Shown here: one piece after another, positions 16,826-20,614 of the stretch
Layout of the letters: every line of letters begins with the position of its first letter
Numbering within the stretch: position 1 is the stretch's first letter
From: a virus
Direction: 5' to 3' (one strand)
Virus genome (UHGV): UHGV-0119950
Length of the DNA: 53,290 bases
Notes under the pieces: generated by a model
Told to the model about the DNA's origin: nothing
Databases searched by the model: none
The model's input: the letters and a program-made list of their open reading frames with translations, nothing else
Program-made: the position numbers and the translations under genes

Positions 16826-17082
16826 TGGATCAACTTCTGCAATACGCCACCAATCGGATTATAGAACTGGAAAACCTTCTGCTGGTGAATGTTGAGGAAA
16901 CGGTCTGGCCAGCAGAGGTTCAGATGGTTTTTAGTCAAATCGAAAACGCCGGGAGTTTCCCGGCGCACCACCAGCGCCGATTGCAGCACCACATCAACAG
17001 AATGTGGCTGGAAAAAATACCGGTTACTTCGATTATTGCCGCAGCGCGCTCGCTGGCAGATGCAATGGAGAAATACGCGTGA
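16822..17082 (+). CDS. Hypothetical protein
   Basis: 86-aa ORF, ATGA coupling. Confidence 0.55.
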   Translation: MMDQLLQYATNRIIELENLLLVNVEETVWPAEVQMVFSQIENAGSFPAHHQRRLQHHINRMWLEKIPVTSIIAAARSLADAMEKYA

Positions 17083-19160
17083 GAAATAGCGAAATCATTG
17101 TTGATAATTTTGCTGGTGGCGGCGGTGCTTCCACTGGAATTGAGATGGCGACTGGCCGCAGCGTGGACATTGCGATTAACCACGATCCGAATGCCGTTGC
17201 GATGCACACGACAAACCACCCCAATACACTGCATTATTGCGAATCTGTCTACGATGTCAGGCCGAAGGTAGCGACCGCCGGGCGTCCGGTGGCGCTGGCG
17301 TGGTTCTCGCCGGATTGCCGTCACTTTTCAAAAGCCAAAGGTGCGAAGCCGGTAGAGAAAGCGATCCGGGGTCTGGCCTGGGTAGTTCTGCGCTGGGGGC
17401 TGGATGTAAAACCCCGGGTGATGAAACTGGAGAACGTCGAAGAATTTAAAACGTGGGGCCCTTTGCTCGCTGGTGAAATGAGGCCAGACCCGGCCCGTGC
17501 TGGAGAAAATTTTGAGGCGTTCATTGGTATGCTGACTACTGGCATCCGGGCTGACCACCCGGCACTGGCGGAGTGCTGTGAATTTCTGGGTATTTCTCTT
17601 GATAGTGAAGACGCCGCGAGGCTGATCAAAGGGCTGGGCTACATCGTCGAGTATCGCGAGTTGCGCGCCTGCGACTACGGTGCGCCGACGATCCGCAAGC
17701 GATTCTTTATGATTATGCGTTGTGACGGGAAACCGATTGTGTGGCCTGAGCCAACACATGGCGATCCGAAATCACCGGCTGTCCAGGCTGGTAAGCTGGC
17801 ACCGTGGCGCACAGCTGCGGAGTGCATAGACTGGACAATTCCGGCTCCATCGATATTCGATCGCAAAAAGCCGCTGGCAGAAAATACCCTTAAGCGCATC
17901 GCGCGCGGCATCCAGCGATTTGTTATCGACAGTGCGTCGCCGTTTATCGTGAAGTGCAACCACACCAGCAGCCGTTCAAGTTATGATTGTTTCCGTGGGC
18001 AGCCACTGGAAGAACCCCTGCAAACGATCACGAAAAAGCATGGTTACGCCGTCGCAGTACCACATCTGACGAAGTTCCGTACCGGCGCAACCGGGCAGGA
18101 AGTCACCGAACCTGTACCGACTGTAACAGCTGGCACGTCGGCGCGCCCGGGTGGGAATGGTCATGCGCTTGGTATCGTTGAAGCTGCGCTGACTCCGTTC
18201 CTGGCTGGTAATGGCGGCAGTGAGTACCAGGCTAAGCCGCGCCCGCTGGATAAACCAGCTCACACTATACTGAAACAATCCCGGGCATGTGTCGTTGCGC
18301 CGGTTATCGCCCGACAGTTTGGCGCCAGCACCGGCCACCGCGCAGATGAGCCGAACGCGACTATTACCGCTGGTGGCGGCGGTAAATCGCAACTTGTTAC
18401 ATCGACACTGATCCAGATGGGATACGGGGAAAGGCCAGGTCAGGAACCTCGCGTTCTCCAGATCGAAAAACCGTTAGGGACAGTAACCGCTGGTGGAAAC
18501 AAGTTCGCCGTGGCCAGCGCATTTCTGGCGAAGCACTACGGCGGCAACTATACGGGACCGGGCGTCGGGCTGGATGAGCCGACTCACTCAGTTACGACGG
18601 TTGATCATCATGCGGTTGTTGCGGCACATCTAATGGTGAACAACACCGGGCATCCTGGCGGCTCCGTGGACTCTCCAGCGCATACCGTTACAACAGGAAA
18701 TCACCATGCTGTAGTGACTTCTCATCTTGTGCATTTGCGAGGGTTCTGCAAAGACGGTCAAAAAATGGATCAGCCGGTGCCAACGATTACCGCCGGAGGC
18801 CAGCATGTTGGGGAGGTGAAAACCACTCTGGCAGTTGAGCACTACAACGAACAGCGCGCGCAACAGACGTTGGCGTTCCTGCGTGAATATTGCGGCGAAG
18901 ATTGTACCGGGCTGGTGGATATCGACGGGATCACATATCGTATTGTTGATATCGGAATGCGCATGCTGCAACCGCATGAGCTTTACCGCGCGCAGGGCTT
19001 CCCGGACTGGTACATCATCGATCGGGATTATCGCGGCGTGAAGTATGCAAAGGATAAGCAGGTTGCCCGCTGCGGTAATGCTGTGCCGCCACCGTTCGCC
19101 GAGGCTCTGGTAAGGGCCAATTTACCCGAACTTTGCCAGCCGAAAGAAATGGCAGCGTAA
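17079..19160 (+). CDS. DNA (cytosine-5) methyltransferase, 693 aa, with expanded repeat-containing variable region
   Basis: Motif I DNFAGGGG, motif IV FSPDCRHFS, motif VI KLENV, QGFPDWY and motif X GNAVPPPF. GTG start overlaps the upstream stop (GTGA). Confidence 0.92.
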   Translation: MRNSEIIVDNFAGGGGASTGIEMATGRSVDIAINHDPNAVAMHTTNHPNTLHYCESVYDVRPKVATAGRPVALAWFSPDCRHFSKAKGAKPVEKAIRGLAWVVLRWGLDVKPRVMKLENVEEFKTWGPLLAGEMRPDPARAGENFEAFIGMLTTGIRADHPALAECCEFLGISLDSEDAARLIKGLGYIVEYRELRACDYGAPTIRKRFFMIMRCDGKPIVWPEPTHGDPKSPAVQAGKLAPWRTAAECIDWTIPAPSIFDRKKPLAENTLKRIARGIQRFVIDSASPFIVKCNHTSSRSSYDCFRGQPLEEPLQTITKKHGYAVAVPHLTKFRTGATGQEVTEPVPTVTAGTSARPGGNGHALGIVEAALTPFLAGNGGSEYQAKPRPLDKPAHTILKQSRACVVAPVIARQFGASTGHRADEPNATITAGGGGKSQLVTSTLIQMGYGERPGQEPRVLQIEKPLGTVTAGGNKFAVASAFLAKHYGGNYTGPGVGLDEPTHSVTTVDHHAVVAAHLMVNNTGHPGGSVDSPAHTVTTGNHHAVVTSHLVHLRGFCKDGQKMDQPVPTITAGGQHVGEVKTTLAVEHYNEQRAQQTLAFLREYCGEDCTGLVDIDGITYRIVDIGMRMLQPHELYRAQGFPDWYIIDRDYRGVKYAKDKQVARCGNAVPPPFAEALVRANLPELCQPKEMAA

Positions 19161-19173
19161 TGTATAATCCCTC

Positions 19174-19377
19174 TCAAAGCATCGAGAGGGATTCGTTTTT
19201 CTTCGGTATCTCGCGCTGCGGACTGTAGAGTTTCCCGTTAATAACTATCCAGCTACCCTTAATCCACTTCGTGACCTGCTGTCGATTAACGCCCATATGT
19301 CTGGCGAACTCTGATTGATTTCCCTGGTGGTGAATAGCAATGTAATCGGTCAAGGTAAGAGCATTCATGTTATTCAC
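19174..19377 (-). CDS. Small HTH DNA-binding protein, 67 aa (Aca-like position)
   Basis: HTH NQSEFARHMGVNRQQVTKWIKG. Overlaps the stop of the upstream 156-aa gene by 8 nt. Confidence 0.75.
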   Translation of the reverse strand: MNNMNALTLTDYIAIHHQGNQSEFARHMGVNRQQVTKWIKGSWIVINGKLYSPQREIPKKNESLSML

Positions 19378-19840
19378 CTTTTACAGCAGGGTTGACGATC
19401 AGATAGCTGGTACCGTGCTCGTCTTCCATTTCTACAGCGTCGAAACCAAGATGGGCGGCAGCGCGACCTCTCAGGCGCTGCATTTCCCAACTAGCTGCTG
19501 CAAACTCATCCGCTGAATCAGTCCGAGGTGACAGAATATCAGCAAACGCGTCGTCACACTCATCGTCAGCCAGTGCGTATGCCAGCGCTTCCAGTTGTTC
19601 TTCGTCTGCTTCAACTTCACTACGCAGGAAACTTATGACATCAGCGATACGGTCGTGTAAGTCTCCATTATCTGCGATGATTTCAACGTTGTAGCTGTAA
19701 ACAAAATTACCGTGAGAGCCTGCAACATCGAAATCTGAGCAAGCAAAGATACCATCAAAAATATTGTCACCAGACATTGCGAAAGCGCCAACTTTGATTA
19801 CTGGAGCGGTGTTTTCGTATGAGCCGTGAAACAGTTTCAT
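19370..19840 (-). CDS. Hypothetical 156-aa protein with N-terminal FHGS motif and acidic centre; candidate anti-defence / ADP-ribosyltransferase-like
   Basis: MKLFHGSYEN..., acidic EVEADEEQLEALAYALADDECDD, C-terminal LGFDAVEMEDEHGTSYLIV. First gene of a two-gene operon with the HTH gene. Confidence 0.7.
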   Translation of the reverse strand: MKLFHGSYENTAPVIKVGAFAMSGDNIFDGIFACSDFDVAGSHGNFVYSYNVEIIADNGDLHDRIADVISFLRSEVEADEEQLEALAYALADDECDDAFADILSPRTDSADEFAAASWEMQRLRGRAAAHLGFDAVEMEDEHGTSYLIVNPAVKGE

Positions 19841-19872
19841 GATGATTGTCCATTTTGTTTGTGTAAGTGTAT

Positions 19873-19893
19873 TGTAATCAATAAATGATTACA
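19873..19893. promoter_or_regulatory. Perfect 8-bp inverted repeat TGTAATCA-N5-TGATTACA; candidate operator
   Basis: Lies 33 nt upstream of the 156-aa gene start, in a divergent intergenic region. Not a LexA box (no CTGT-N8-ACAG). Confidence 0.55.
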
Positions 19894-19971
19894 TTCAAGT
19901 GACTTTTATCACGGATCGGAAAGACATTGGTACGTGTATAATGATAAAAAATGAATACCGTAGGGGATTGC

Positions 19972-20229
19972 ATGTCAGACTGGAATATCGCAGCAAAATA
20001 GAAAGAAGAGCAGGACAAGGTTAATGTTGATCTGGCCGCCAGCGGCGTTGCGTATAAAGAGCGCCTGAACATGCCGGTTGTTGCTGAAGTGGTGATGCGT
20101 GAGCAGCCGGAGCACTTGCGCGACTATTTCATTGAGCGCGTCAGATACTATCGTGAGCAAAGCCTGAAGCTACCGAAATCATCCGATCCGCGCTACATCG
20201 AAATGGCTGAGCAGAACGCCAAAAAGTAA
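19972..20229 (+). pseudogene. 85-codon reading frame interrupted by an in-frame TAG at codon 10 (19999-20001)
   Basis: ATG TCA GAC TGG AAT ATC GCA GCA AAA TAG AAA GAA GAG... continues in the same frame to TAA at 20227, followed by a strong terminator. An internal ATG at 20071 could still give 52 aa. Confidence 0.5.
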
Positions 20230-20248
20230 CTGAACATGGAATGAACTC

Positions 20249-20271
20249 AACCCGCTTCGGCGGGTTTTTTT
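20249..20271 (+). terminator. Intrinsic terminator
   Basis: CCCGC-TTCG-GCGGG followed by T7. Confidence 0.85.
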
Positions 20272-20342
20272 ACGCCTGAAATTTGTGTCTACGGGTTAAC
20301 AATTCGTGCTCTTAAAACGTTGATCATTTCGTTTTATAGGTA

Positions 20343-20362
20343 TACTGTATAAAAATACAGTA
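20343..20362. promoter_or_regulatory. LexA (SOS) box
   Basis: TACTGTATAAAAATACAGTA fits TACTGT-N8-ACAGTA. Overlaps the -10 region of a promoter (TTGATC at 20320-20325). Confidence 0.85.
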
Positions 20363-20380
20363 TACGCAATGGAGGCCACT

Positions 20381-20614
20381 ATGAAAGTTGAGTTAACTAT
20401 TGATCGAACAAAGAAACTTCCTGATGGTGCAGTGCCAGCACTTGAAAAAGAATTGCTTAAACGACTGAATAATCAGTATGAGAATTGCAGCCTGACAATC
20501 CGTCGCGCCGGATCAGATGGACTGAGCGTTTTCGGTGGCGATAAGGACGATAAAAAGAAAATTGAAAAGATCCTCCAGGAGACCTGGGAAAGCGCTGACG
20601 ACTGGTTTTACTAA
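20381..20614 (+). CDS. dinI: DinI-family protein
   Basis: MKVELTIDRTKKLPDGAVPALEKELLKRL...KKIEKILQETWESADDWFY parallels E. coli DinI (…RISEILQETWESADDWFVSE, from memory). SD GGAGG. LexA box upstream. Confidence 0.9.
   Translation: MKVELTIDRTKKLPDGAVPALEKELLKRLNNQYENCSLTIRRAGSDGLSVFGGDKDDKKKIEKILQETWESADDWFY

What the first reader, a model, noticed from the sequence alone, without database searches (positions are those of the whole stretch)
19174..19893. acr-aca-like operon: 156-aa FHGS-motif acidic protein plus 67-aa HTH, with a perfect palindromic operator
The minus-strand pair (19370-19840, then 19174-19377, with an 8-nt overlap) is convergent with the methyltransferase gene. It has its own upstream region carrying TGTAATCA-N5-TGATTACA (19873-19893).

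A small accessory protein followed by a small autoregulatory HTH protein is the canonical anti-CRISPR / anti-defence (acr-aca) arrangement.

The 156-aa protein starts MKLFHGSYEN. It has a strongly acidic central helix region and ends ...LGFDAVEMEDEHGTSYLIV. An N-terminal hydrophobic-H-G-S motif plus a C-terminal acidic strand recalls minimal H-Y-E ADP-ribosyltransferases. To my recollection it resembles the AcrIF11 anti-CRISPR family, which ADP-ribosylates Cas8f and is typically paired with aca genes. That similarity is from memory only.
Basis: partly seen in the sequence, partly recalled or inferred. Interest (0 to 1): 0.7.

Follow-up and report, generated by a model that had tools for sequence, protein, structure and literature searches.

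The report
Known acrIF11–aca5 anti-CRISPR operon
This is an ordinary, already described kind of prophage anti-CRISPR operon: an AcrIF11-family ADP-ribosyltransferase gene, its Aca5 repressor gene, and the Aca5 operator inside the promoter.

Summary
Two co-directional minus-strand genes (19840..19370, 156 aa; 19368..19174, 64 aa) follow a perfect palindrome, TGTAATCA-N5-TGATTACA (19893..19873).

- **Second gene.** The HTH protein belongs to the Aca5 family. It is 49% identical to reference Aca5 and 78% identical to a published E. coli member.
- **Operator.** The palindrome has the core and spacing of the published Aca5 operator (TAATCA-N5-TGATTA). It fills the gap between the −35 and −10 boxes of the only σ70-like promoter in the region.
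- **Conservation.** The same gene order and operator position recur in Citrobacter, Ewingella, Yersinia, Pectobacterium and Brenneria loci and on enterobacterial plasmids.
- **Context.** The operon sits in the nin region of a lambdoid prophage, probably in a Citrobacter genome, next to an orphan C5 methyltransferase.

Enzymatic activity, its target and operator binding remain inferred.

The parts
19871..19898 (-). σ70-type promoter of the operon: −35 TTGAAT (19898-19893), 16-nt spacer, −10 TACAAT (19876-19871)
   Evidence: This is the only promoter-like site found on either strand in 19000-20400. Related loci have the same layout about 53-56 nt upstream of the acr ATG.
19873..19893 (.). Aca5 operator: perfect inverted repeat TGTAATCA-TTTAT-TGATTACA. 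It spans the promoter spacer and overlaps the last base of −35 and the first four bases of −10.
   Evidence: Sequence read. The core is unique in the window. It has the same core and spacing as the published Aca5 MEME motif ATAATCAATTTTTGATTATA, described as lying between −35 and −10. Identical arms occur in C. koseri, Ewingella and E. coli pSE11-2 although the spacer differs.
19370..19840 (-). acrIF11-family gene: 156-aa ADP-ribosyltransferase with key residues H5, F32, H43, D140/E141 and an acidic helical insert at about residues 58-112
19174..19368 (-). aca5-family gene: 64-aa HTH autorepressor (an alternative in-frame GTG start at 19377 would give 67 aa)
   Evidence: 49% identity, E=5e-18, to reference Aca5 WP_039494319.1. 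78% identity to the listed Aca5 member WP_012565004.1. Pfam HTH_28 25.6 bits against a cut-off of 25. The 64-aa form was called independently on an identical contig.
19166..19193 (.). 10-bp GC-rich hairpin in the convergent junction, overlapping the last codons and the stop of aca5. It scores as an intrinsic terminator only on the + strand (T-tail), that is, for the methylase gene. It has no U-tract for the acr-aca transcript.
   Evidence: The hairpin is also conserved in the C. koseri locus, which has no methylase gene there.

Best explanation
The locus is an acrIF11–aca5 anti-CRISPR operon carried as an independently transcribed, opposite-strand insert in the nin region of a lambdoid prophage, probably in a Citrobacter genome.

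The proposed mechanism has three steps.

1. A σ70 promoter (19898-19871) drives a bicistronic transcript.
2. The first product is an AcrIF11-family mono-ADP-ribosyltransferase. By homology, it uses NAD+ to ADP-ribosylate the Cas8f (Csy1) subunit of the type I-F surveillance complex, at N250 in P. aeruginosa. This blocks target-DNA binding catalytically, at sub-stoichiometric levels. The acidic helical insert is the likely module that recognises the target complex.
3. The second product, Aca5, is inferred to bind as a dimer to the 8-N5-8 inverted repeat that fills the promoter spacer. That would exclude RNA polymerase, so expression is a burst on entry or induction followed by a low repressed level in the lysogen.

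Shown here: gene structure, family membership of both proteins, conservation of the catalytic residues, the predicted fold, the operator's match to the published motif and its position, and conservation of the architecture across genera.

Inferred: enzymatic activity, the identity of the target, DNA binding and repression.
For: **AcrIF11 membership**
- NF052490 equivalog, 126.6 bits against a cut-off of 50.
- Precomputed Pfam PF26151 AcrIF11_ADP_ribosyl on the identical protein.
- 6KYF at E=1.1e-11 over residues 1-149, and 8DWQ (AcrIF11Pae2) at E=2.9e-6.

**Key residues**
- AcrIF11 H7/F26/H37/D115 (PMC8120803) and the D115/E116 loop (PMC12421852) align to H5/F32/H43/D140-E141.
- F32, H43, D140 and E141 are invariant, and H5 is ≥90% conserved, in 47 homologs.

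**Aca5**
- Sequence matches.
- The literature states that aca5 lies downstream of acrIF11 orthologs in Enterobacterales (PMC7648647).

**Operator**
- The published Aca5 inverted repeat lies between −35 and −10, and cognate Aca proteins repress their promoters through these repeats (PMC9410906).
- The window's repeat has the same core and spacing and sits inside the only predicted promoter.

**Conservation**
- acrIF11→aca5 with an inverted repeat 53-56 nt upstream of the ATG occurs in 10 or more loci from 8 genera and on plasmids.
- In the C. koseri relative the arms are kept while the spacer has changed.
Against: - No experiment exists for this ortholog. It is only about 30% identical to the biochemically characterised AcrIF11Pae1.
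- Its helical region, the proposed specificity determinant, is about 25 residues longer.
- I could not establish whether the host carries a type I-F system.
- In the papers I could read I found no activity test of any enterobacterial AcrIF11 ortholog.
- The Shine-Dalgarno sequence of the first gene is weak.
- The neighbouring hot gene has a nonsense codon, so some decay of this prophage region is possible.
Confidence: 0.88

Rival explanations
1. The fold and chemistry are the same, but the target differs. On this reading the enterobacterial clade of AcrIF11-like ARTs, with its longer acidic helical insert, modifies something other than type I-F Cas8f, for example another Cascade type or another defence or host complex. 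Aca5 would still act as its regulator.
For: - The helical region is the least conserved part of the family and has been proposed to set target specificity (PMC12421852).
- Identity to characterised AcrIF11 is only about 30%.
- Homologous DNA occurs on 456 plasmid records, 319 of them E. coli. From my own knowledge, E. coli mostly carries type I-E rather than I-F.
- I found no activity test of an enterobacterial ortholog in the papers I read.
Against: - NCBI classes the family as an equivalog, and the window protein scores far above the cut-off.
- Enterobacterales are reported as enriched in I-F and I-E systems, and aca5 operons there carry many validated I-F Acrs (PMC7648647).
- The catalytic loop and NAD-site residues are fully conserved.
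- AcrIF11 has been shown to be highly target-specific (PMC12421852).
Confidence: 0.08
2. The pair is a type II toxin-antitoxin module made of an ART-fold toxin and an HTH antitoxin/autorepressor, like Xre-RES or ParS-ParT, that stabilises the prophage rather than acting as an anti-CRISPR.
For: - The HTH has a sub-threshold hit to Pfam 'YdaS_toxin' (26.3 bits against a cut-off of 30).
- The arrangement is a small bicistronic operon with an autoregulatory palindrome.
Against: - The top matches by a wide margin are the AcrIF11 structures and model.
- The gene order, enzyme first and HTH second, is that of acr-aca operons.
- There is no RES or other toxin Pfam/NCBIfam hit.
- On Rouxiella plasmid pSP2 the acr homolog persists in two copies with aca5 truncated to 14 codons. 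A toxin would not be tolerated without its antitoxin.
Confidence: 0.02
3. The operon is a decaying, non-functional remnant in a degrading prophage.
For: The adjacent hot (theta-homolog) gene has an in-frame TAG at codon 10.
Against: - Both ORFs are intact.
- All key residues are conserved.
- The promoter and the perfect operator are intact.
- The identical protein is present on several long contigs.
- The prophage retains integrase, Q, lysis and structural genes.
Confidence: 0.02

Closest known systems
AcrIF11 (AcrIF11Pae1, PDB 6KYF; AcrIF11Pae2, PDB 8DWQ): anti-CRISPR mono-ADP-ribosyltransferase that modifies Cas8f N250
   Same: - It is homologous over its full length.
- It has the same H-F-H-D key residues and D-E catalytic loop.
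- It is small and acidic, carried by a prophage, and followed by an aca gene.
   Different: - It is about 30% identical and 156 aa long, against 132 aa.
- It has a longer, more acidic helical insert.
- Its partner is Aca5, not Aca1/4/7.
- The host is enterobacterial (probably Citrobacter).
- Its activity and target are untested.
Aca5 (reference WP_039494319.1, Pectobacterium) and its operator ATAATCA-N5-TGATTAT (Shehreen et al. 2022, PMC9410906)
   Same: - It is 49% identical to the reference and 78% identical to the listed E. coli member.
- It is an HTH protein of 60-68 aa located immediately downstream of the acr gene.
- Its inverted repeat has the same TAATCA-N5-TGATTA core between −35 and −10.
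   Different: - The outer operator bases are TG...CA rather than A...T.
- I found no convincing second repeat (IR2) upstream of −35.
- The recognition-helix variant is NRQQVTKW, against DAQAVNKW in the reference, whose own operator reads TAGTCA/TGACTA.
acrIF11–aca5 operons of Enterobacterales prophages and plasmids (Marino et al. 2018, as cited in PMC7648647; Pinilla-Redondo et al. 2020)
   Same: It has the same two-gene architecture, the same mobile-element context, and a neighbouring anti-restriction-type gene (an orphan methyltransferase), as described for anti-defence clustering.
   Different: Nothing is different in kind. This is a single-acr version with no stacked extra acr genes, located in the nin region between a C5 methylase gene and a hot gene.

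Membership tests
AcrIF11 anti-CRISPR ADP-ribosyltransferase | Scores above the curated cut-off of the family model (NCBIfam NF052490 equivalog; Pfam PF26151) | tested here: met
   126.6 bits against a cut-off of 50, E=1.3e-36, model positions 1-142 of 142. PF26151 is precomputed on the identical protein. The local Pfam copy gave no hit, apparently because it lacks that model.
AcrIF11 anti-CRISPR ADP-ribosyltransferase | Homology and shared fold with experimentally characterised AcrIF11 structures | tested here: met
AcrIF11 anti-CRISPR ADP-ribosyltransferase | NAD-site and catalytic residues H7, F26, H37, D115 (and E116) | tested here: met
   They align to H5, F32, H43, D140 and E141 (residue list from PMC8120803 and PMC12421852). 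They are invariant or ≥90% conserved in 47 homologs.
AcrIF11 anti-CRISPR ADP-ribosyltransferase | NAD-dependent ADP-ribosylation of Cas8f and inhibition of type I-F interference | not testable with these tools
   This needs biochemistry and phage or plasmid assays.
AcrIF11 anti-CRISPR ADP-ribosyltransferase | [quoted passage not shown] | not testable with these tools
   Only the 53-kb window is available. The host is probably Citrobacter. A literature search for the C. koseri CRISPR type gave nothing useful.
Aca5 anti-CRISPR-associated repressor | Sequence homology to reference Aca5 and to listed family members | tested here: met
   49% identity, E=5e-18, to WP_039494319.1. 78% identity, E=1e-36, to WP_012565004.1. 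Sequences were taken from the supplement of PMC9410906.
Aca5 anti-CRISPR-associated repressor | Small HTH protein (HTH_28/HTH_3) encoded last in the operon, directly after the acr gene(s) | tested here: met
   HTH_28 scores 25.6 bits against a cut-off of 25, which is marginal. The protein is 64 aa and starts 1 nt after the acr stop.
Aca5 anti-CRISPR-associated repressor | Cognate inverted repeat (ATAatCaa-N3-TtGatTAT) between −35 and −10 of the operon promoter | tested here: met
   TGTAATCA-TTTAT-TGATTACA lies inside TTGAAT-16-TACAAT.
Aca5 anti-CRISPR-associated repressor | Binds the inverted repeat and represses the promoter | not testable with these tools
   This was shown for a P. parmentieri Aca5/promoter pair in PMC9410906, not for this ortholog.
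Xre-RES / ParS-ParT type II toxin-antitoxin (ART-fold toxin) | RES-domain toxin with the antitoxin encoded upstream of it | tested here: not met

The most novel reading that the evidence does not exclude
The enterobacterial AcrIF11 clade, with its roughly 25-residue longer and strongly acidic helical insert (net charge −15 over residues 58-112), may have been retargeted to a complex other than the Pseudomonas-type I-F Csy complex. Candidates are type I-E Cascade or another defence complex. That would explain why the clade is so abundant on E. coli conjugative plasmids.

Separately, the Aca5 family shows what looks like a simple code linking recognition helix to operator: QQVTKW with TAATCA, Q[AK]V..W with TAGTC, and RPQKVQ[DE]W with TAACCG. 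This could be used to design orthogonal repressors.
Probability: 0.1. Interest if true: 0.5.

Novelty: already known. Interest (0 to 1): 0.12.

Why it matters
It matters mainly as annotation. The closest database relatives, including the 94%-identical C. koseri protein, are still labelled 'hypothetical protein', and the aca5 gene is often not called at all. The locus marks this prophage as carrying a catalytic anti-CRISPR next to an orphan methyltransferase, which is another example of anti-defence gene clustering. It opens no new question. The one open point of wider interest is the target specificity of the enterobacterial AcrIF11 clade.

Tried and rejected
- **Near-identity DNA searches.** Megablast of 19100-20000 against complete E. 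coli genomes and against INPHARED phages gave no match. The element is not a sequenced E. coli or phage genome.
- **Local Pfam scan.** The 156-aa protein gave no family. This was misleading, because PF26151 exists and is attached to the identical protein elsewhere.
- **Primary paper.** The Niu et al. 2020 AcrIF11 paper is not held. I took the residue information from PMC8120803 and PMC12421852 instead.
- **Second operator.** I looked for a second Aca5 site (IR2) upstream of −35. Only a weak unrelated mini-palindrome, GTGATAAAAGTCAC, is there, with no convincing IR2.
- **Terminator.** The hairpin at 19166-19193 has a T-tail only on the + strand, so I did not call it the terminator of the acr-aca operon.
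- **Toxin-antitoxin reading.** I considered and rejected it (see the rival explanations).
- **Host CRISPR type.** A literature search for the C. koseri CRISPR subtype returned nothing usable.
- **Tests of related orthologs.** I found no published activity test of an enterobacterial AcrIF11 ortholog.
- **tRNA scan.** A scan of the window found no tRNA genes.

Full report
**Observation**

- A 156-aa ORF, 19840..19370, begins MKLFHGSYEN.
- A small ORF follows, ending at 19174.
- A perfect inverted repeat, TGTAATCA-TTTAT-TGATTACA, lies at 19893..19873.

The repeat core TAATCA-N5-TGATTA occurs once in the 53-kb window when up to one mismatch is allowed, against 0.11 expected from shuffles.

The pair is convergent with a 718-aa C5 cytosine DNA methylase gene, 17004..19160 (+).

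One correction concerns the second gene. The mechanical ORF starts at GTG 19377, which would overlap the first gene by 8 nt. An in-frame ATG at 19368 is preceded by AAGGTGA at the right distance. An independent gene call on an ENA contig encoding the identical proteins also starts there, giving 64 aa one base after the acr stop.

The protein is indeed acidic. Its pI is 4.15, and residues 58-112 have a net charge of −15.

**What the first gene is**

Several lines of evidence place the 156-aa protein in the AcrIF11 family.
- It matches the AcrIF11 crystal structure 6KYF at E=1.1e-11 over residues 1-149, and 8DWQ at E=2.9e-6. 8DWQ is deposited as 'H3 protein', and PMC12421852 identifies it as the NMR structure of AcrIF11Pae2.
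- NCBI's curated equivalog model NF052490, 'AcrIF11 family anti-CRISPR ADP-ribosyltransferase', scores 126.6 bits against a cut-off of 50, covering the whole model.
- Homologs at 55-69% identity already carry that name in NCBI. The closest relative, 94% identical and from Citrobacter koseri, is still labelled 'hypothetical'.
- All listed homologs carry Pfam PF26151 AcrIF11_ADP_ribosyl. The local Pfam copy lacks this model, so one search returned nothing.

The key residues are conserved. For AcrIF11Pae1 the published residues are H7, F26, H37 and the catalytic D115, and the D115A mutant loses ADP-ribosylation (PMC8120803). D115/E116 sit on the most structurally conserved loop of the family (PMC12421852). 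In the HMMER alignment these map to H5, F32, H43 and D140/E141 of the window protein. In an alignment of 47 homologs, F32, H43, D140 and E141 are invariant and H5 is at least 90% conserved.

The predicted fold agrees.
- An AlphaFold2 model built on that alignment has pLDDT 86.2 and pTM 0.85.
- Foldseek against the PDB puts 6KYF first (E=1.8e-8) and 8DWQ second.

**What the second gene and the palindrome are**

The 64-aa protein is a basic HTH protein (pI 9.9). Its Pfam HTH_28 hit is just above threshold.

The supplement of Shehreen et al. 2022 (PMC9410906) lists the Aca5 family. The window protein is 49% identical (E=5e-18) to reference Aca5 WP_039494319.1, and 78% identical (E=1e-36) to the listed E. 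coli member WP_012565004.1.

Pinilla-Redondo et al. [quoted passage not shown] Its MEME consensus is ATAATCAATTTTTGATTATA. Across the Aca families tested in that study, the cognate Aca repressed reporter expression by about 90% on average. In most cases, scrambling the repeat abolished repression.

The window palindrome has the same TAATCA-N5-TGATTA core and spacing. The only σ70-like promoter in 19000-20400 is TTGAAT-16-TACAAT at 19898..19871 on the minus strand. The palindrome fills its spacer, touching the last base of −35 and the first four bases of −10.

**Conservation**

A genome scan found 14 related loci. The order acrIF11→aca5 is present in Buttiauxella, Ewingella, Brenneria (2 loci), Pectobacterium (2), Yersinia and Rouxiella. 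It is also present in the C. koseri relatives, where aca5 exists but was not called by the annotators.

In the acrIF11–aca5 loci an inverted repeat sits 53-56 nt upstream of the acr ATG, inside a −35/−10 pair. In the Buttiauxella locus L001 I recognised the repeat only by eye. In C. koseri the arms are identical to the window's while the spacer differs (CTTTT against TTTAT), as expected if the arms are the selected part.

E. coli plasmid pSE11-2 has the identical arms, and Serratia plasmid pJSRIV002_2 has two Aca5-type repeats next to psiA. A distant DNA search finds the operon on 456 plasmid records, 425 of them conjugative.

As a by-product, the operator half-site varies with the Aca5 recognition-helix variant:

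| Recognition helix | Half-site | Loci |
|---|---|---|
| [NT]RQQVTKW | TAATCA | WIN, L015, L019, L002 |
| DAQAVNKW | TAGTCA | L010, the reference Aca5 |
| DRQKV..W | TAGTC | L008, L009 |
| RPQKVQ[DE]W | TAACCG | L003, L004, L007 |

**Context**

The window is an integrated lambdoid prophage.
- Left end: a host response-regulator gene and an integrase gene.
- nin region: NinB, HNH, RusA and Q genes, followed by lysis, terminase and tail genes.
- Right end: a tail spike gene, an acyltransferase gene and a umuC-like gene.

The integrase falls in a 90% identity cluster made of C. koseri and other Citrobacter proteins. The exact Acr and Aca proteins are found only in ENA and Logan assemblies.

The operon lies antisense to the surrounding rightward genes, between the C5 methylase gene and a divergent hot (theta-homolog) gene. 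The same hot–acr–aca arrangement is seen in C. koseri.

**Mechanism and how firmly it rests**

- **Shown:** the anatomy, family membership, residue conservation, predicted fold, the operator's match to the published motif and its position, and cross-genus conservation.
- **Inferred from the family literature:** NAD-dependent ADP-ribosylation of Cas8f (N250 in P. aeruginosa), which blocks DNA binding by the type I-F complex; recognition of the target through the acidic helical region contacting Cas7f lysines (PMC12421852); and Aca5 binding (inferred to be as a dimer) occluding the core promoter.
- **Not established:** the host's CRISPR subtype and this ortholog's target. The main residual alternative is a changed target. 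A toxin-antitoxin reading is rejected on the margin of the AcrIF11 match, the gene order and the absence of a RES signature. In addition, Rouxiella plasmid pSP2 keeps two acr copies although aca5 is truncated.

**Verdict**

The locus is a textbook acrIF11–aca5 operon with its operator, a system described between 2018 and 2025 and recognised by curated annotation models. Novelty: already known. Interest is low.

Noticed in passing
window 19972-20229 (+): The hot gene (DNA polymerase III theta-subunit homolog), divergent from acrIF11, has an in-frame TAG at codon 10 (19999-20001). The translation reads [24 protein letters not shown]... The C. koseri relative has an intact 85-aa gene. It is either a pseudogene or is expressed from the internal ATG at 20071 as a 52-aa protein.
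   Followed up: partly
window 17004-19160 (+): This is an unusually long C5 cytosine methylase: 718 aa from the GTG start, or 693 aa by an independent gene call. It contains about six repeats of a T[VI]T[AT]G-like motif (PVPTVTAGT, PNATITAGG, PLGTVTAGG, PTHSVTTVD, PAHTVTTGN, PVPTITAGG). It looks like a multi-target-recognition-domain (multispecific) orphan phage methyltransferase. With acr-aca beside it, the two form an anti-defence cluster.
   Followed up: no
L005 and L006 (Rouxiella badensis plasmid pSP2, CP114059.1, 38746-47213 and 63821-72288): Two inverted copies of an acrIF11 homolog occur here. In each, aca5 is cut to 14 codons (MTLSEYINKNFSEN*) and one operator arm is mutated (TGATTGCA). 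This is an acr gene that has lost its repressor.
   Followed up: partly
Loci L001-L010, L015, L019, L020 (about 53-56 nt upstream of each acr start) and window 19873-19893: The operator half-site co-varies with the Aca5 recognition helix: QQVTKW with TAATCA, DAQAVNKW or DRQKV..W with TAGTC(A), and RPQKVQ[DE]W with TAACCG. The published single MEME motif merges these variants.
   Followed up: partly
L015-L017 (C. koseri GCA_016114665.1 and Logan contigs), downstream of the acr gene: In the public gene calls for the 94%-identical C. koseri locus, aca5 is not annotated at all, and the Acr protein is labelled 'hypothetical protein'. This is an annotation gap.
   Followed up: yes
L020 (Serratia plasmid pJSRIV002_2) and plasmid hits: acrIF11-aca5 is widespread on conjugative enterobacterial plasmids: 456 records, 319 of them E. 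coli. In the Serratia plasmid it lies next to psiA, which suggests the leading region.
   Followed up: partly
window 19899-19912 (-): A small imperfect palindrome, GTGATAAAAGTCAC, lies just upstream of the −35 box. In C. koseri it reads GTGATAAAAATCAC. It is not an Aca5-type repeat, and its role is unknown.
   Followed up: no
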